From: Eledone cirrhosa
Taxonomy: Eukaryota
Reading direction: 5' to 3'
Length of the DNA: 64,000 nt
NCBI GenBank assembly: GCA_964016885.1
Contig: OZ024745.1
Coordinates: forward strand, 35,650,001 to 35,714,000
Shown: positions 24,756 through 64,000 of the stretch, in pieces
How positions within the stretch are numbered: position 1 is the first letter of the stretch
Layout of the letters: every line of letters begins with the position of its first letter
Made by a program: the position numbers and the translations under genes
The notes under the pieces: model-generated
Databases searched by the model: none
What the model was told of the DNA's origin: nothing
Seen by the model: the letters and a program-made list of their open reading frames with translations, nothing else

Positions 24756-24796
24756 CGATGTAATAGTTTCGAGCTTATTAGCTATCGTCAGCATCG
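24756..24796 (-). ncRNA. Minimal type I hammerhead motif
   Basis: Minus: cgatg-CTGACGA-t-agct-aata-agct-c-GAAA-ctat-TA-catcg. Stem I is a perfect 5 bp. Adjacent inverted repeat at 24780-24838/24867-24925. Confidence 0.68.
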
Positions 24797-24943
24797 TATA
24801 CCTTTCTGTCAGATGATTGAACGTTTGAAAGTATATACTGCTCAGCCGTTAATATGCATAAGGAAAGTATATACTTCCAAGCGTTCAATCATCTGACAGA
24901 AAGGTATGCGATGCAGACGATAGCTGCACGTGTGTGTGCGCGC

Positions 24944-26822: not shown

Positions 26823-27104
26823 ATATTTATATATACATATATATATATAGTAATAATAATAAATTTGAAGATTAAAATCCAAAGAGGGCTCGATATTTAT
26901 ATATACAATGATATTAAATAAATTTGTTGAATTACCAACAAATTGAATATCCCTTTTGCCTATATATATATATATGCAAAAGTTCTATTTAAAATTGTTG
27001 GGATACAACAAGTAAATATTTTTATAACTGATATAAAGCACTCGACAAGTATTTGGAGTAGATATACGATATTAATAAATGGAAACTATATTTATAAAAC
27101 CATA

Positions 27105-27171
27105 TTTATTTCATTATACATATTTCCGGGATACCAAATTAAATTATGGTATGTCTTCATCAGACAAAATA
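27105..27171 (-). ncRNA. Minimal type I hammerhead motif (family C) inside a fold-back
   Basis: Minus: tattttgt-CTGATGA-agacatacca...tggtatcccg-GAAA-tatgta-TA-atgaaata. Mirrored copy at ~27178-27275. Confidence 0.6.
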
Positions 27172-27282
27172 CAATATATGATGAAGACATACCATAATTT
27201 AATTTGGTATCCCTGAAATATGTATAATGAAATAAATATGGTTTTATGAATATAGTTTCCATTTATTAATATCGTATATATA

Positions 27283-37878: not shown

Positions 37879-38515
37879 TTCGTTTTTGAATTTGTTTTGC
37901 GAGCGAGGTTTCTTATCTGAAAACATGTGTTGAAACAGATATTGTTACACTTTGGGACGGTCATGTTGCCAATACAAACACACGCACCTGTTGTTTTCAC
38001 TTCATTTTATTATAAATTTCTGGTTGGTTGGTTGGTTCGATAACCGGAAGGCTGTTTATATATTGTCAAAGCTCTTTCGTCACACATTCTGTAACCTCCT
38101 CATCGACTAGGTTTTTATTCATCGAACTAATCAACCAACCGGAAATCTATATATCTAAAACAGAGAATGTTTGTCTGTCTGTCTGTCTGACTCCATAAAA
38201 CTCGAGAACCACCCAACCGACTATTTTCAAACTTTACACATGTAATGTTTATGGTCTTTTTAGATAGATACATAGATATAACGTTGCGCCCTTATAATAT
38301 CTGTCTGTATGTCTGGCCGTCTGCATTACGACATTATGACTCTATATGTGTGTGTGTATATATATGTATATACAGTGTGTGTACATATATATATATAGTG
38401 TGTAAAATGTTTCGAAATATTTACTTCTGCGTTCACAGATTGACGTTTTTAGTTTCAGAAGATCCCATTAAGTTTGAAAGCAGTGATTCTTTGCTTAAAC
38501 TTTAATCTGTTATTA

Positions 38516-38546
<31 letters not shown>

Positions 38547-38874
38547 TATATTCGTGTACAGATATCTTTGCATACACAATAACAAAATATAAACAAAAGT
38601 ATTTATTTCGCGATAAAGTATTGATTTTGTTCGCACGGAAAAAAATTCCTGGTAATCTATGACCAATTTTGTTTATAGGCACAACATGTAGACACCATCC
38701 CGAGGCCGAGGTATTCCGTACTTCTCTGTACTGTTTCAGAAAGGAGGGATAAACATGCAAATCTATGTTTAGAATCACGAGCAACGCCGGGCCGTTCTGC
38801 TAGTTTATAATAAATTGGAGTGAAAATCACAGGTGCGTGTGTTTTTATTGACAACATGATCCTCCCAAAGTCTA

Positions 38875-38878
<4 letters not shown>
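37879..38878 (-). mobile_element. Older, shorter copy of the 39969-40950 PLE family, with its inverted arm interrupted by a Helitron
   Basis: 37879-38110 aligns to 39969-40225 (tail, pLTR, degenerate HHR at 38065-38107). 38129-38145 joined to 38804-38878 is the reverse complement of ~37943-38035. Confidence 0.75.
38146..38803 (+). mobile_element. Non-autonomous Helitron
   Basis: 5' end is TCTATATATCTAAAA followed by (GTCT)n. 3' end is an imperfect GC hairpin (cacgagcaacgccggg, ~38776-38791) then CTAG. Inserted between A and T with no target-site duplication. Removing it restores ggaaa|tttataataaa, which matches the opposite arm. Confidence 0.75.
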
Positions 38879-39360: not shown

Positions 39361-39822
39361 CTATTAAACAATGAAAGTGGAACAAAAGTCGAAGATAGGT
39401 TCTTAATTAGTTCATTGTTTTACGATACGTTTAGAGGCCTGATTCATCATTGTAAATCGATATATTGACTAATATATAGCAATTATGTCACTAGCTATTG
39501 ATCGGGGATATTGAGGCTAGAAAGACCTGGTGACATAACTATTACCTATTAGTCAATATATCTATTTTCCATGATCAATGAACCCTCTGAAACGATCGTA
39601 AACAATGAGCTAATTAAGAAACTATCTTTGTCTTTCATTGTTCTATACACATATATATACAATGATTCTGTAGCTCGATTAGAATACTTTATGGAACCTT
39701 ATGCGATGAGAGCCTACTACATAAACTATAGCTCTCACCACATCATCTCCTTGAAATTATCTTTTCAATACTGCATTAGTTCTATCAATATTATTGACAC
39801 CACTGTAAGCAAGTGGATTTAA

Positions 39823-39870
<48 letters not shown>

Positions 39871-40179
39871 GGTGTTGGATGCGTAAAGCATCCGTATGCG
39901 GAAGGCCGTATGAGCACTCGATGCCCTCGTAGAGCAGAATATGATATCATGATATATATATATATATATTTCGTTTCTGAATTTGTTTAGCAAGCTTCTT
40001 TATCTGAAATCGTGTGTTGAAACCGATATTGTTATACTTTGGGAGGGCCATGTTGCCAAAAAGAAACACACGCACCAGTTGCTTTCACTTCAATTTATTA
40101 TAATAAATTTAGGAATTTACAAATTTCTGGTTGGTTGGTTGGTTGGTTGGTTCCACAACCAGATAATTGTTTATATATT

Positions 40180-40222
40180 GTCAAAGTTCTTTCGTCACAC
40201 ATTCTGTGACCTCTTCAGTGAC
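40180..40222 (-). ncRNA. Type I hammerhead ribozyme motif (PLE pLTR)
   Basis: Minus strand: gtca-CTGAAGA-g-gtcaca-gaatg-tgtgac-GAAA-gaac-TT-tgac. Stem I is gtca/tgac; stem II has 6 bp. Confidence 0.7.
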
Positions 40223-40423
40223 TGGGGATTCTTTTCTTTGTTTTTGTGCCTCTCCTTTGGTCTGTCCTACGCCATATTGTTTCTGTGTGTGTGTTGTGTG
40301 CTCAGTCTGCGCATGCGCCACATCCAGGTGTCTGTGTGTGTTTATATTTGTTTATTTATTTGTTTATTTACATGTTACCGGTTGGTTGTTTGTTCTATGT
40401 GTGTGTGTGTTTTCATTTTGTCC

Positions 40424-40560
40424 TTAATTGTAAGTTGTGATGTTGCTGTTCCACTCATATTTTCTATTTAATTTTGGTTGTAATTCTTTTATGTTTATTG
40501 CCTCTGTGATTTGTCTAAACATTGCGTCTTTTCTGTGTGTAGATTCTATAGAATCTACAC
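40424..40560 (-). pseudogene. C-terminal fragment of a PLE GIY-YIG endonuclease
   Basis: End of ORF 40424-40762(-): VDSIESTHRKDAMFRQITEAINIKELQPKLNRKYEWNSNITTYN*. The upstream part of that ORF is only the inverted arm. Confidence 0.75.
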
Positions 40561-40761
40561 ACAATGAAAACACACACACACATAGAACAAACAAACAACC
40601 AACCGGTAACATGTAAATAAACAAATAAATAAACAAATATAAACACACACAGACACCCGGATGTGGCGCATGCGCAGACTGAGCACACAACACACACACA
40701 GAAACAAAATGGCGTAGGACAGAACAAAGGAGAGGCACAGAAACAAAGAAAGGAATCCCCA

Positions 40762-40804
40762 ATCACTGAAGAGGTCACAGAATGTGTGACGAAAGAACTT
40801 TGAC
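40762..40804 (+). ncRNA. Type I hammerhead ribozyme motif (inverted pLTR copy)
   Basis: atca-CTGAAGA-g-gtcaca-gaatg-tgtgac-GAAA-gaac-TT-tgac. Confidence 0.65.
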
Positions 40805-40942
40805 AATATATAAACAACTATCTGGTTGTGGAACCAACTAACCAACCAGAAATTTGTAAATTCCTAAATTTATTATAATAAATTGAAGTGAAAGCAACTG
40901 GTGCGTGTGTTTCTTATTGGCAACATGGCCCTCCCAAATTAT

Positions 40943-40995
<53 letters not shown>

Positions 40996-41384: not shown

Positions 41385-41506
41385 ATAATAATAAATTTAA
41401 AGACTAAAATCCAAAGAGGGCTCGCTAAGGATAAATATATATCAAATATACACAGCTCTCTCCCTCTCTCTCTCTCTCTCCCTCTCTCTGTATATATATA
41501 TATATA

Positions 41507-41665
41507 TTAAAATAACAGATTAAAGTTTAGGCAAAGAATCGCTGCTTTCATCCTTAAGGGTGAAAGCAGCGATTCTTTGCTTAAAGTTTAAGCAAAGAAT
41601 CGCTGCTTTCACCCTTAAGGATGAAAGCAGCGATTCTTTGCCTAAACTTTAATCTGTTATTTTAA
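41507..41665. repeat. Perfect 79-bp-arm palindrome whose arms are themselves hairpins (family B)
   Basis: 41507-41585 is the reverse complement of 41587-41665. Each arm contains gcaaagaatcgctgctttca-(t/c)ccttaagg(g/a)-tgaaagcagcgattctttgc. Confidence 0.9.
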
Positions 41666-41799
41666 TATATATATATATATATATACAGAGAGAGAGAGAG
41701 AGAGAGAGGGAGAGAGCTGTGTATGCATATGTGTATGTATGCACGTGTGTATGAGGTGCGGGATGGCACACACACATACGTCTCTCTCTCTCTCCCCCA

Positions 41800-49404: not shown

Positions 49405-49600
49405 AACGAAGGAAATGTGGTAAGGAACCAGGTGGACCATAACGCACCAAAGTACTCAATACTTGAGGTAGTAGAGTGGGTAATAGGAACCAGTAAGACC
49501 CCGACAGCTGAGCTCAAGCCGTTTCGACGGCTAATTCTGGACTGAGTCCAGAATTAGCCGTCGAAACGGCTTGAGCTCAGCTGTCGGGGTCTTACTGGTT

Positions 49601-49605
<5 letters not shown>
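49405..49605 (-). mobile_element. Family A fold-back module with perfect 61-bp arms
   Basis: 49483-49543 and 49545-49605 are exact reverse complements; tail at 49405-49482. Confidence 0.8.
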
Positions 49606-50328: not shown

Positions 50329-50475
50329 AGTATTAAGTTGTTAAACAATATTCGATGATTATGTCAAAGAATGAGTTTTACAGTAGATTGGAAGCACTCA
50401 ACGAAAAATAATTTTCAGGAGTTATTAATATTAAAATATAAGTGTTAATAAAATAGATGTTCTTTTGATCAATTA

Positions 50476-50530
50476 CATTTTATTATACATATTTCGGATG
50501 TACAACAGTACGTCCTCATCAGACAAAATA
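50476..50530 (-). ncRNA. Minimal type I hammerhead motif (family C-related)
   Basis: Minus: tattttgt-CTGATGA-ggacgtac-tgtt-gtacatcc-GAAA-tatgta-TA-ataaaatg. Confidence 0.72.
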
Positions 50531-50690
50531 TAATGATACATGACATACCCTGAGATGTTAAATGGTTAAGATGTATTGTTGTACATCCGAAATATGTATA
50601 ATAAAATGTAATTGATCAAAAGAACATCTATTTTATTAATACTTATATTTTAATATCTATATCTATATCTATCTGTATATATATATATAT

Positions 50691-52551: not shown

Positions 52552-52660
52552 GACAGCCATACAACGCAATCTACCCTCACTTGTATTGAATGACTTTCTA
52601 AACAAATATAAGAACTTTTAAGTTTCGAATTGCTTAAAATTTGAAGCAAATTATCACACC

Positions 52661-52720
<60 letters not shown>

Positions 52721-55700
52721 GCTGTGATAATTTGCTTCAAGTTTTATGCAATTCGAAACTTAGAAGTTCTCATATTTGTTTAGAAAGTCTAAATATATGT
52801 ATCTACATATATATACATACATGTATGTATATATATACATACATGCGTCTTTGTACGTGTGTATGTGTTAGTGACAAAATGCGTAATATACAATTGTCGC
52901 TTAGAAACAAATATGATTCAGATACATAATGTATTGTGTATACTTTAAATAAAATTGCCACATTGTATTTTTGTCACCAGATGAATTTGTTTTATCCAGG
53001 ACTAGACTGGTTCTTTATTTTATCGATATCGAAGGTCAATATTGTCTTCTGTTAAATTTGAACCGAGTGTGTAGAGAATAGTAATGAACTCATTTTGATT
53101 TTCTAATGAATTTGCCATGGCGTCGCTTTATATGTATGTAAACTTTTCAGAAATGGTGCAATCCTAATAAAATGTGACATTAAAAATACATAATTGTAGT
53201 TCGAGTTAATTTAAAAAAAATATGTCGGAGAAGAAAGATAAAAATGAGATTACTTGCTTAATAAAACACGTTTTTGGACAGAGTATCGTTTACGATATCA
53301 ATATAGAGTACTCGGCAGAGTACTGACTAGAGTAGCCTTTGCGGTTGTCACAAAACATTGCAAATAATACCGATTATTACACCAAGCCGCTTTTTTATAC
53401 TTATTTTAGCGTGGACACCAGAACATAGATATGTTATTGGATGGGGGTGGGTTGAGGGGATTAATGAATTAAATAGACATTTGTATTTCAATGGAAGATT
53501 TTGTTGATTACGGAAGGAAGAAATGAAAGTTGATCTGAACGAAACAAAGACTGCAAGGCACTTTTTCTGATTAACTAACTTTCTTCCAATCCGCCAGTGC
53601 AACAAGCTCTTAATAATAAATCTTAAGAGGCCAAAGGATCTTAAATTTTGTTTCAGTGGGTGACTTGAAACTAGTTATTTCTAGTGCATTAATTTCTCGA
53701 CACAAGAAAGATGAAGTTAAAATTGTCAACGGTGAACTCAGAACATAAAGAGATATTGTCTAACAATTCTGATATTCACCAATTATTATAAGGATTTCCT
53801 GTATTACCACAAGGGCGACACATAGGGGTCATTATAAGGAAGAGTTACACAACAATTCAATTTGCCGATTAAAAAAATGATACGTTCCGTGAAATGCATA
53901 ATTCAATACGCACACTCCTACACACGTATACACACACACACTCACCCCCCCCCACACATATATATATATATATATATATGTTACTAAAACATATAATAAT
54001 TATTTCTACTTTTGGCACAAGGCCAGAAATTATCCCAGTGTATTACTGGTACTTTATTTTATCGAACCCTGTAAGGATGAAAGGCAAAGTTAACCTCGGC
54101 GGGGTTTGAACTCAGACCTAAAACATATAATAATGTTATTGTTACATGGGTAAAAGGCCAGAAAATTATTTGATAAAATCGTCCTCAGTTCTTCACTGGT
54201 ACTTTATTTTATTCATTCCAGTAGAATGAAAGACCCATTTCATCTCAACTGGTTTTGAACTCAGAACATATAGAGTCGTAACTAAATACTGTAAGGCTTT
54301 TAGTCCGACGCTCTAACGATTCTGGCAAACCGTATCTTAATTGGTGGAATATTTCAGCATCACTACATGGAACTTGCGTGCATTTAGTAGAGTCTACCTT
54401 TTCCGAGCTGAAGATACGTTCCTTCCACCCAGCCACTGTCTAAGAGGCCTACAATATGGCCATGGGCACTACACTTCCCTCCCTTGCCTAAACAATATAA
54501 AACAAAACAAAACAAAAGCAATTGCTTCATATATTGTTATTCGTATTCATTCAAGAGATTGGCGAAAGTACAATGATGAAACACAAATAACTGGTTTAAT
54601 TAAGATAGTGTTAATATAGCTAAGGTATTGAATGAGCGATAGGTAGAATGTTTGTGTTCTTTTTTAAAAGCCTTCAATGTAGGTGTAATATGTTTTCTTG
54701 TGGAACGTTTGATATATAGACTGTATTGTTATTTTTTGTTTTTTGTCTACGCTGTTTAGTTTGTTAATATGGGTATGATGTAATGTTAGTTTTAGAAGAC
54801 TAATTAATTGTACTAAGCTTTAGGTTTTCTGTCACTGAATAATTGTATTTTGTGTTGTAGGTCTTCGATTTATGGGTCTTGTTGTATTCCTTTACATTTA
54901 TTTAGAAGTTGCGTGGGGGTATGAGAGAAGAAATGTTATCAATATACGCGGACAAAACATTTAGATGTAATAGATGTAATCACCCCTGTATATGATAAGT
55001 ATTTTATAGATTCAGGAAGTATGACAAGCAAAATCGACATCGGCATGATTTTAGCTCTGAATGGAAAGAGTCTGAACTAAATACCGTTAAACATTTCAGC
55101 GGACCCTTTAATATGTAGCATAACAATGGATTTTAAGGGAGAAGGAACAGCCAATAATAATTGTTGACTGATCGTTTATTCAGTTACTAGGATAGATTAC
55201 TTGTATAAATTACTAGTTAGCTACAGGGCTAGCTGTAATTCCCTCATCCAGAATCTCTTCACCCCCTAACATTTGTGATGTTACGCTTATGTTGTAATTG
55301 TTATTGTTACAGCTGACCCCTGCATAGGTTTAGGGGGTCAAACATGAAGTTGCATGCATCTCATTAGAAATTCCATGGGTGTTTCAATGATAGATGAACC
55401 GGTCATACCATGCGTACCTATGTTAGAAATGATAAGGTAATTTGATAATGCGGCCCACACTATTTAACGCTACAACATAATTCATTATATGTGACCAATA
55501 GTTATGTTATTGACCTTGGAAAGATGGAAGCATAAGTGGACTTTGGAAGATTTGAAATGAGAACATTAAGAGATTTTAAAAAATATGATCACAGAACATG
55601 AGCCATATGGCATAGTGTTCGACTTACCAAGGATTTTATTCATCCATTTCTAATAATAAGCAGCATTACTAAATAAAACACAAGAGCAATCGGTTTCTAG

Positions 55701-60938: not shown

Positions 60939-61431
60939 CTAGAGAGAGAAAGTGAGGGAAAAAGAGAGAGGGAAAGAGAAAGTGAGGGAAAAAGAGATAG
61001 AGAGTGAGAGAGAGAAAGAGAGAGAAAGGGTGACTGAAGGCGTTTGGAAGCCACGGTGTGATCGTAATATTGATGTTGTGGTAGTGGCTGTGGTGGTAGT
61101 AGTTGTAATAGTTCTTATGTTGTAGTAGTGGTAATAGTGGTAGTATTTATGTTGTAGTGGTGGTGCCGTATTTCTCTGTATTAAGTATTGATAGTTGTAG
61201 TAGTAGTTGGAGTTATTATATTGTTGTGGTTGTAGTGGTTCTAGTACTTGTGTTGTAATGGTTGAGGTGCTTGTAGTGGTGCTAGTACTTGTGTTGTAAT
61301 GGTTGTAGTGCTTGTAGTGGTGCCGTAGTTATTATGTTGTTAGTGGGAAGGGGTGATGTTGACATTAATGATGATATAGAAGTGGTGGTCGCGGAAGTAG
61401 TAGTAGTAGTAGCAGCAGCAGTAGAAGTATT

Positions 61432-61685
61432 ATTATTCAAATCCTGCCGAGGTTAACTTTGCCTTTAATCCTTACGGGGTCGATGAAATAAAGTACCAGT
61501 AATGCACTGGGTCAACTGCTGGCCTTGTGCCTAAAGTAGAAACAATTAATATTATTATATTATTATTAGTTCAAATCCCGCCGAGGTTAACTTTGACTTT
61601 CCTTTATTACGAGGTCGATAAAATAAAGTACCAGTAATGCACTGGGATAATTGCTGTCCTTGCGCCAAAAGTAGAAACAATTATT
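61432..61685 (+). mobile_element. Two tandem SINE remnants (same family, plus strand)
   Basis: ttcaaatcc.gccgaggttaactttg.cttt....tac.gggtcgat.aaataaagtaccagtaatgcactggg, twice (61436-61545 and 61570-61685). Confidence 0.75.
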
Positions 61686-61692
61686 ATTAGAA

Positions 61693-61959
61693 GTAGTAGT
61701 AGTAGTAGTAGTACTAGTAATAGAAATAGTAGTAGTAGTAGTAGTAGTAGTAATAGAAATAGTAGTAGTAGTAGTAGTAGTAGTAATTGTAGTAGTAGTT
61801 GTAGTAGTAGTTGTAGTAGTAGTAGTAGTAGTAGTAGTAGTTGTAGTAGTAGTAGTAGTAGTAGTAGTTGTAGTAGTAGTAGTTGTAGTAGTAGTAGTAG
61901 TTGTAGTAGTAGTAGTAGTAGTAGTTGTAGTAGTAGTAGTAGTAGTTGTAGTAGTAGTT

Positions 61960-61993
<34 letters not shown>
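61693..61993. repeat. (TAG)n microsatellite with TTG interruptions
   Basis: Direct inspection. Confidence 0.95.
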
Positions 61994-62289
61994 CTATAGT
62001 TGTTATGTTGTAGTGCGGGTAATAGTTATATGTTTTGCTCTGAGTAGTGGTAGTAGTACTGGTATTAGTTGTAGAGGTATTAGTTATTATGTTTTTGTGG
62101 TGGTAGTAGTTTTACCAATAGTTGTTATTTTGTGGTGGTGATAGTAGATGTTGATGTAACAGCACAAAGGGTGCCAGGAATTATGATATTGTTATAGTAC
62201 AAGTGTTGGTAATTATGTAGTTGTGGTGGTAGTAGCGGTTGTAGCTATGTTATAGTGGTGTTAGTAGTGGTGATGCGAGAATATGCCAC

Positions 62290-64000
62290 CAGTGGTGATA
62301 GTGGTAGTAGTGGTAATAGTTGTGTGGCTATTGTGATAGTAGTGGTAATAGTTGTGTGGCTGTTGTGGTAGTAGTGGTAATAGTTGTGTTGTGGTAGTAG
62401 TGGTAATAGTTGTGTTGTGGTAGTAGTGGCAATAGTTGTGTGGCTGTTGTGGTAGTAGTGGTAATAGTTGAATTGTGGTAGTAGTGGTAATAGTTGTGTG
62501 GCTGTTGTGGTAGTAGTGGTAATAGGTGTGTGACTGTTGTGGTAGTAGTGGTAATAGTTGTGTGGCTGTTGTGGTAGTAGTGGTAATAGTTGTGTTGTGG
62601 TAGTAGTGGTAATAGTTGTGTGGCGGTTGTGATAGTAGTGGTAATAGTTGGGTGGCGGTTGTGATAGTAGTGGTAATAGTTGGGTGGCGGTTGTGATAGT
62701 AGTGGTAATAGTTGTGTGGCTGTTGTGGTAGTAGTGGTAATAGTTGGGTGGCGGTTGTGATAGTAGTGGTAATAGTTGTGTGGCGGTTGTGATAGTAGTG
62801 GTAATAGTTGTGTGGCTGTTGTGGTAGTAGTGGTAATAGTTGTGTGGCTGTTGTGATAGTAGTGGTAATAGTTGTGTGGTTGTTGTGGTAGTAGTGGTAA
62901 TAGTTGTGTGGCTGTTGTGGTAGTAGTGGTAATAGTTGTGTTGTGGTAGTAGTGGTAACAGTTGTTTGGCTGTTGTGGTAGTAGTGGTAATAGTTGTGTG
63001 GCTGTTGTGGTAGTAGTGGTAATAGTTGTGTTGTGGTAGTAGTGGTAACAGTTGTTTGGCTGTTGTGGTAGTAGTGGTAATAGTTGTGTTGTGGTAGTAG
63101 TGGTAACAGTTGTTTGGCTGTTGTGGTAGTAGTGGTAATAGTTGTGTGGCTGTTGTGGTAGTAGTGGTAATAGTTGTGTTGTGGTAGTAGTGGTAACAGT
63201 TGTTTGGCTGTTGTGGTAGTAGTGGTAATAGCTGTGTGGCTGTTGTGGTAGCAGTGGTAATATTTGTGTGGCGGTTGTGATAGTAGTGGTAATAGTTGTG
63301 TGGATGTTGTGGTAGTAGAGGTAATAGTTGTGTGGCGGTTGTGGTGGTAGTGGTAATAGTTGTGTGGCTGTTGTGGTAGTAGTGGTAATAGTTGTGTTGT
63401 GGTAGTAGTGGTAATAGTTGTGTTGTGGTAGTAGTGGCAATAGTTGTGTGGCTGTTGTGGTAGTAGTGGTAATAGTTGAATTGTGGTAGTAGTGGTAATA
63501 GTTGTGTGGCTGTTGTGGTAGTAGTGGTAATAGGTGTGTGACTGTTGTGGTAGTAGTGGTAATAGTTGTGTGGCTGTTGTGGTAGTAGTGGTAATAGTTG
63601 TGTTGTGGTAGTAGTGGTAATAGTTGTGTGGCGGTTGTGATAGTAGTGGTAATAGTTGGGTGGCGGTTGTGATAGTAGTGGTAATAGTTGGGTGGCGGTT
63701 GTGATAGTAGTGGTAATAGTTGTGTGGCTGTTGTGGTAGTAGTGGTAATAGTTGGGTGGCGGTTGTGATAGTAGTGGTAATAGTTGTGTGGCGGTTGTGA
63801 TAGTAGTGGTAATAGTTGTGTGGCTGTTGTGGTAGTAGTGGTAATAGTTGTGTGGCTGTTGTGATAGTAGTGGTAATAGTTGTGTGGTTGTTGTGGTAGT
63901 AGTGGTAATAGTTGTGTGGCTGTTGTGGTAGTAGTGGTAATAGTTGTGTTGTGGTAGTAGTGGTAACAGTTGTTTGGCTGTTGTGGTAGTAGTGGTAATA
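62290..64000. repeat. Minisatellite of 32-bp and 26-bp units with a 1008-bp higher-order period
   Basis: Units are ggtagtagtggtaatagttgtgtggctgttgt and ggtagtagtggtaatagttgtgttgt. Rare variants ggcaatag (62430, 63438) and gttgaattg (62471, 63479) recur 1008 bp apart. Runs off the end of the window. Confidence 0.9.

What the first reader, a model, noticed from the sequence alone, without database searches (positions are those of the whole stretch)
39969..40950. Key module: GIY-YIG tail between ~390-bp inverted HHR-containing arms, inside (TA)n
Seen: inverted arms, an endonuclease-like C-terminal peptide, an HHR in each arm, a 57-nt tail missing from the inverted arm, and TA on both flanks. Established: inverted pLTR + truncated ORF + pLTR + tail is the typical form of 5'-truncated Penelope insertions. 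This copy links the ORF-less mini-modules to a protein-coding parent. If transcribed it would form long dsRNA, a potential ADAR or small-RNA substrate (inference).
Basis: partly seen in the sequence, partly recalled or inferred. Interest (0 to 1): 0.7.

Follow-up and report, generated by a model that had tools for sequence, protein, structure and literature searches.

The report
Two-ended Penelope insertion, unusual parent enzyme
This is a dead, truncated copy of a very abundant Penelope-like jumping gene in a known head-to-head layout; its sister copies suggest that both cut ends of the target DNA likely copy the same RNA from two fixed start points, and the parent enzyme carries a telomerase-sized insert that likely marks an undescribed branch of these elements.

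Summary
A 41-aa GIY-YIG C-terminus, inverted pLTR arms (377/388 identical), a minimal hammerhead motif in each arm, a 56-nt tail on one arm and (TA)n flanks are all present. The peptide is 100% identical to copies that extend into RT + GIY-YIG ORFs; the genome holds 13,874 inner and 12,293 outer exact ends. The layout is the published 5'-truncated Penelope-like (PLE) form.

Two extras. (1) Inverted insertions almost always pair one tailed with one tail-less end (49 of 50; 42 of 46 in a position-based sample). Either arm can be longer, and the arms share subfamily variants (27 of 762 sites discordant, 254 expected). This fits both target strands priming on one RNA. The scan proposed this earlier on other DNA; I found no paper stating it. 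(2) The parent RT has DKS instead of DKG and a conserved ~70-aa insert at the telomerase IFD position, together with a C-terminal endonuclease. It forms its own branch (100/100) and matches none of the eight named PLE clades by motif; labelled references could not be put in the tree. The dsRNA/ADAR idea is untested. The link to other window palindromes is weak.

The parts
39952..39969 (.). left (TA)n flank (target)
   Evidence: 143 of 147 family 3' ends are followed by TA repeats
39970..40025 (-). 56-nt tail between the outer and inner 3' ends; it is codons 9-27 of the element ORF
   Evidence: exact end counts
40026..40423 (-). sense pLTR (3' UTR, hammerhead, ATG at 40051)
40179..40223 (-). 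minimal type I hammerhead motif (stem I 4 bp, unpaired G, stem II 6 bp, GAAC loop, CUU)
40424..40549 (-). last 41 codons and stop of the RT-GIY-YIG ORF (includes the EA and LN motifs)
40534..40563 (.). perfect 15+15-nt palindrome at the head-to-head junction (templated snap-back insert joining the two arms)
40559..40950 (+). inverted pLTR arm ending at the inner start site, no tail
40761..40805 (+). second hammerhead motif, stem I broken by G>A at 40762
40947..40992 (.). right (TA)n flank (target)

Best explanation
The module is a non-coding, 5'-truncated insertion of a young, high-copy Penelope-like retrotransposon, likely made when both strands of a cut (TA)n target primed reverse transcription on the same element RNA, one at the outer start (giving the tail) and one at the inner start, and the two cDNAs were then joined head to head. 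Shown: family identity, two fixed 3' ends 55-56 nt apart, the one-tail rule, a shared source lineage of the two arms, and junction microhomology or templated inserts. Inferred: cleavage of both strands by a dimer, one RNA molecule, displacement of the inner cDNA by the outer one, and end-joining repair (polymerase-theta-like; recalled, not tested). The parent ORF (about 1,220 aa by the natural copy used as reference) encodes a TERT-like RT with a ~70-aa insert between motifs A and B', a short CX4CX2C linker and a C-terminal CCHH GIY-YIG endonuclease. It likely belongs to an unnamed PLE branch. This copy encodes nothing functional.
For: 150 of 150 scored hits are 100% identical to the peptide; 22,220 first-look candidates. 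Open frames up to 1,167 aa carry YVDD and VVY..YIGET. The top 15 structural matches are TERTs, Z 13.2-16.0, best 375 residues at 3.7 A. Ends: 49 of 50 inverted insertions pair IN with OUT, while single-arm copies are 21 IN and 20 OUT of 42. In a position-based sample of C1 0-37 Mb, 42 of 46 are mixed (4 overlap the first set), and 2 of the 4 exceptions are separate insertions split by TA runs. The tailed arm reaches further 5' in 18 of 36, the tail-less arm in 16, equal in 2. In L136 the arms do not overlap at all. So neither arm is simply a copy of the other. Arms are discordant at 27 of 762 common polymorphic sites against 254 expected (37 pairs); pooled arm divergence is 1.28% against 2.66% background (32 pairs). 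Junctions: 16 overlaps, 17 inserts, 3 blunt of 36. PMC11167929 showed two RT start sites, cleavage and extension of both strands, and a predicted dimer for the anole PLE.
Against: Two genuine tail/tail insertions exist (L131, L132), and one IN/IN pair was not resolved. The window copy itself is weak on the shared-template test: 3 of 12 common sites are discordant against 3.7 expected, although the arms share 5 rare variants and 1 private variant. Arm similarity could also come from two transcripts of one source locus or from later gene conversion. Directly repeated tandem units show the same concordance (6 of 211 against 71 expected). The first sample is biased to young copies on one contig. 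26 of 35 single-arm copies have no TA run within 15 nt of the 5' end, which this model does not explain. No fully intact ORF was seen among the 20 longer stretches translated.
Confidence: 0.7

Rival explanations
1. Self-priming or fold-back: a single cDNA (or an antisense template) snaps back and copies itself, as proposed for Adineta Penelopes.
For: The junction here is a perfect 15+15 palindrome. A few copies are near-symmetric (L108, L046, L040). The model is in PMC3846280 (passages read).
Against: In 16 of 36 pairs the tail-less arm is the longer one, so the tailed arm cannot be its copy; in 18 the reverse holds. The arms do not overlap in L136. Most junctions are not palindromes.
Confidence: 0.1
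2. Two RNA molecules from the same active source locus, one per subunit of an asymmetric dimer, each subunit fixed to one start site.
For: It explains shared subfamily variants and either arm being longer. A dimer is predicted for the anole PLE (PMC11167929).
Against: It needs a built-in asymmetry. In vitro the two strands showed no difference in start site (PMC11167929). One RNA gives the one-tail rule by site occupancy without extra assumptions (inference).
Confidence: 0.15
3. Two independent insertions into the same (TA)n tract, later homogenised by gene conversion.
For: TA tracts are hot targets, and adjacent separate insertions do occur (L133, L134).
Against: It predicts 50% same-type ends and TA between the arms. 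Observed: 49 of 50 mixed with no TA run between the ends. Private variants are mostly unshared (146 unshared, 21 shared).
Confidence: 0.05

Closest known systems
Canonical C-terminal-EN Penelope-like elements with inverted pLTR and one-sided tail (PMC8557442 Fig. 2 legend; A. vaga Pen2a, PMC3846280)
   Same: RT + C-terminal GIY-YIG, pLTR that runs into the ORF start, partial tandems, inverted 5'-truncated copy, tail at one end, minimal hammerhead in the pLTR, (TA)n preference.
   Different: Tail 55-56 nt rather than 30-40. RT has DKS and a motif A-B' spacing of 123-143 aa against about 60. The one-tail pairing is counted here and is near-obligate.
Nematis clade
   Same: Short CX2-5CxxC linker with a 7-aa spacer before the CCHH cysteine, and a similar endonuclease C-terminus (compared by eye with Fig. 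S2 rows).
   Different: Nematis rows in Figs S1/S7 have DKG/DKR and no fingers insert. Proteins with the SDKGGE motif fall outside the long-insert branch.
Naiad/Chlamys
   Same: Insert at the IFD position, modified DK motif, (TA)n target, tens of thousands of copies.
   Different: Their endonuclease is N-terminal and they mostly lack hammerheads. The Naiad insert is about 20 aa and the Chlamys insert about 20-40 aa (PMC8557442); here it is about 70 aa with a C-terminal endonuclease.
Anolis Poseidon PAc (PMC11167929)
   Same: Two RT start sites that define the tail within the ORF start; AT-rich target; hammerhead cleavage not needed (here 0 of 130 arm 5' ends lie at the predicted cut).
   Different: Different clade. 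The parts read (1-2 of 4) do not link the two start sites to inverted insertions.
LINE-1 twin priming (recalled, no call)
   Same: The second target strand primes a second cDNA on the RNA, giving an inversion joined by microhomology.
   Different: Here both primers start at fixed sites 55 nt apart and usually recopy the same stretch, giving long inverted repeats.

Membership tests
EN+ Penelope-like element | RT most similar to telomerase RT | tested here: met
   model pLDDT 93; top 15 VIA matches are TERTs, Z 13.2-16.0
EN+ Penelope-like element | GIY-YIG endonuclease with CCHH motif and R, E, N residues in the same ORF | tested here: met
   motifs; homolog P0063 passes the Pfam GIY-YIG cut-off; the family's own ORF has no Pfam hit and only a weak hit to intron endonuclease 1mk0, E 0.47
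EN+ Penelope-like element | pLTRs, partial tandems, inverted 5'-truncated copy, optional tail | tested here: met
EN+ Penelope-like element | minimal hammerhead motif in the pLTR | tested here: met
   132 copies; matches the description in PMC4209133; no Rfam hit
EN+ Penelope-like element | hammerhead self-cleavage activity | not testable with these tools
   needs an assay; the window copies carry CUU and one has a broken stem I
Canonical C-terminal-EN clades (Penelope/Poseidon, Neptune, Nematis, Hydra) | no insertion in the RT fingers (A-B' spacing about 60 aa) | tested here: not met
   123-143 aa in 134 relatives against 49-65 aa in 26 other PLE-type proteins; Fig. S1 rows
Nematis | short CX2-5CxxC linker | tested here: met
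   CX4CX2C-7aa-C
Nematis | DKG motif | tested here: not met
   DKS in 92 of 134 relatives, DKG in 1, none read in 31
Nematis | RT groups with labelled Nematis sequences | tested here: inconclusive
   no labelled references in the tree; the long-insert rows are one side of a 100/100 branch, apart from SDKGGE-motif proteins; root unknown
Neptune | long spacer between linker CxxC and GIY | tested here: not met
   7 aa here against about 20-25 in Fig. S2 rows
Hydra | CCHH absent, CxCX5C linker, DKT | tested here: not met
   CCHH present and CX4CX2C
Naiad/Chlamys | N-terminal endonuclease | tested here: not met
   C-terminal motif found in 78 of 134, N-terminal in 1, by regex
Telomerase IFD | insert is structurally homologous to the TERT IFD | tested here: inconclusive
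   same position and similar size (193 residues span 173-214 in human, Candida and Tetrahymena TERT, 109 in Tribolium); only the core of about 100-110 residues superposes at 2.6-2.9 A, and alignments of 130-138 residues have rmsd 7-10.6 A

The most novel reading that the evidence does not exclude
The parent defines a ninth Penelope-like clade: C-terminal GIY-YIG, DKS motif and a conserved telomerase-sized insert at the IFD position, widespread in unnamed environmental assemblies and recently amplified to over ten thousand copies in this genome. It inserts by a dimer that copies one RNA from two fixed sites onto both strands of a (TA)n cut, which explains the long-open inverted pLTR and one-sided tail.
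Probability: 0.4. Interest if true: 0.72.

Novelty: new variant of a known kind. Interest (0 to 1): 0.52.

Why it matters
PMC8557442 names the origin of PLE tandem/inverted structures, the tail and the role of the IFD as open questions. This family gives tens of thousands of clean ends and a near-obligate one-tail rule, which turns the question into a barcoded-template assay. An IFD-position insert in a C-terminal-endonuclease PLE would break the stated rule that only N-terminal-EN PLEs carry one, and bears on the PLE-telomerase split. The family escapes Pfam RT detection (of 12 relatives scanned, 2 had sub-threshold RT hits and none passed), so it is probably under-annotated. The single module itself is a dead, ordinary copy.

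Tried and rejected
DNA search of the own genome found nothing because common words are skipped; a protein search worked. Rfam: no hit. Pfam on the peptide and on the long ORFs: nothing relevant. A homolog search with the endonuclease region alone: 357 candidates, none at E<=0.001. Expression and editing: no RNA holder listed; laying four contig sets gave only family polymorphism, so no evidence either way. Hammerhead cleavage as the source of 5' truncation: 0 of 130 arm ends within 10 nt of the predicted cut. The hammerhead region is not more conserved than its flanks (3.1% against 2.1-2.6% minor-base rate), and single-strand folds are not better than shuffles. Homology of the insert to the TERT IFD was not shown. 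A genome-wide count of end pairs by gapped pattern could not be run; listed places from two exact patterns gave a 37-Mb sample instead. Literature: 8 searches found no paper on a C-terminal-EN PLE with a fingers insert or on PLE twin priming. Arkhipova 2006 is not held. Repbase, Dfam and the Fig. 8 data set of PMC8557442 were not seen. In its supplement the motifs TDKSG, DKSGR and DKSGK occur 0 times, but that file holds few canonical reference sequences.

Full report
Observation. The module at 39970-40950 is as described. The minus-strand arm 40421-40026 and the plus-strand arm 40559-40950 match at 377 of 388 aligned columns. A 56-nt tail lies only on the minus arm, and (TA)n flanks both sides. 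Between the arms lie the last 41 codons of an ORF and a perfect 15+15-nt palindrome at 40534-40563. Each arm holds a minimal type I hammerhead motif that Rfam misses. It fits the min-HHR description of PMC4209133 (part 1 of 4 read): short stem I, long stem II, an unpaired base before stem II. The window copies are a minor variant with CUU instead of CUA, and the plus-arm stem I is broken.

Parent element. The peptide gave 22,220 first-look candidates in the 3.0-Gb own genome; all 150 scored were 100% identical and lay on contig C1. Exact end motifs count 13,874 inner and 12,293 outer ends, with reversed-pattern controls at 0. Twenty longer stretches gave open frames up to 1,167 aa with RT motifs, a CX4CX2C linker and a CCHH GIY-YIG domain ending in the window peptide; none was complete from the ATG. 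The ORF begins inside the pLTR and the tail is its codons 9-27, as described for other PLEs (PMC3846280, passages). An AlphaFold model (pLDDT 93) has telomerase RTs as its top 15 matches. The closest named protein is an Octopus vulgaris prediction at 69% identity, so the host is probably a cephalopod (inference).

How the inverted form arises. I mapped 100 fetched stretches on one natural copy; these cover part of the 150 listed hits. 3' ends fall at two positions 55 nt apart. Single-arm copies use both equally (21 and 20 of 42). Inverted insertions pair one of each in 49 of 50 cases (four overlapping or duplicate loci left out). In a sample chosen by position alone (first 37 Mb of C1) the count is 42 of 46 (4 shared with the first set). 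Of those four exceptions, two are separate insertions and two are real tail/tail cases. Either arm can be the longer (18, 16, 2 equal), and in L136 the arms do not overlap, so simple fold-back fails for most copies. The arms come from the same source lineage: 27 of 762 common polymorphic sites are discordant against 254 expected, and divergence is 1.28% against 2.66%. L033/L034 show two near-full arms with identical 863-aa frame limits and one end of each type. The window copy alone is not decisive: 3 of 12 common sites are discordant, but 5 rare variants and 1 private variant are shared. Junctions show short overlaps or templated inserts. PMC11167929 (parts 1-2 of 4 read) showed two start sites, extension of both strands and a predicted dimer. 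The simplest reading is therefore that each target strand primes on the same RNA at a different site and the cDNAs are end-joined. One RNA versus two RNAs from one locus, and later gene conversion, are not separated. I reached this reading before the look-up (notes); one search then showed that the scan had proposed twin priming for PLEs in other genomes and in other pieces of this one. Those are unchecked notes, not independent support.

Clade. In 134 relatives the motif A to B' distance is 123-143 aa, against 49-65 in 26 other PLE-type proteins. Counting from Fig. S1 of PMC8557442 gives about 60 for canonical clades, about 86 for a Naiad, up to about 120 for a Chlamys and about 117 for human TERT. 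The insert has its own conserved motif. The DK motif is DKS in 92 of 134. A C-terminal endonuclease motif is seen in 78 and an N-terminal one in 1. A tree of the RT core without the insert puts 36 long-insert rows (every third, plus query and nearest hit) on one side of a 100/100 branch, apart from proteins with the Nematis-like SDKGGE motif; it has no labelled references and no root. The endonuclease linker is Nematis-like by eye. The insert sits where TERT has its IFD, but superposition on it was not shown. A profile search gives 4,160 representatives at E<=1e-30, a count that may include other PLEs; Atlas look-alikes are mostly unnamed clusters. PMC8557442 (passages, sections 11, 12, 15, supplement parts 1, 53, 54, 57, 58) states that canonical C-terminal-EN PLEs lack the IFD. 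A 2026 preprint (10.64898/2026.07.22.740005, part 1 and passages) still lists eight clades. Eight searches found no description of this branch, but Repbase, Dfam, Arkhipova 2006 and the Fig. 8 data set were not seen, so it may already be filed under Nematis or generic Penelope. Passages of PMC13282606, PMC5718144 and PMC2847249 added nothing on this.

A read-through transcript would form about 375 long-range pairs, but expression and editing could not be tested. Only two other window pieces belong to this family, so the link to the window's other mini-modules is limited.

Verdict. The module is real, dead and of a published form. Its value lies in the family: a counted one-tail rule that makes the PLE inversion mechanism testable, and a parent RT that does not fit the named clades. 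Interest 0.52; new variant of a known kind.

Noticed in passing
single-arm copies among L031-L130: 26 of 35 have no TA run within 15 nt of the 5' end although almost all 3' ends sit in TA. Where the target is not pure TA, 9-11-nt duplications are visible (L057, L095, L107). Unexplained.
   Followed up: partly
L037, L039, L046, L047, L048, L118: Partial tandems whose upstream unit reaches far into the ORF and agrees with the downstream unit at diagnostic sites; this points to multimeric or circular RNA templates. L128 holds an arm of almost exactly one unit length, starting just past the inner start.
   Followed up: partly
window 37880-38115 and 38806-38877: Older relatives of this pLTR, 72% (tailed) and 88% (tail-less), both next to TA-rich sequence.
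   Followed up: partly
window 41448-41724, 27059-27282, 50420-50664, 52592-52789, 39385-39635, 24780-24925, 49483-49605: Other short palindromes that do not match this family by blastn; the one at 41448-41724 includes inverted (TC)n(TA)n flanks.
   Followed up: no
window 6805(+), 21520(-), 45243(-), 50522(-): Further hammerhead-like motifs of other families.
   Followed up: no
P0074: A predicted octopus dynein regulatory complex protein isoform matches the element at 79% over 19% of the searched region: an exonised or mis-annotated element fragment.
   Followed up: no
L031, L047 N-terminal third of the ORF: Asn/Thr/His-rich low-complexity stretch inside the ORF, reminiscent of the N-rich inserts in PMC3846280.
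   Followed up: no
window 61428-64000: Long degenerate tandem array at the window end.
   Followed up: no
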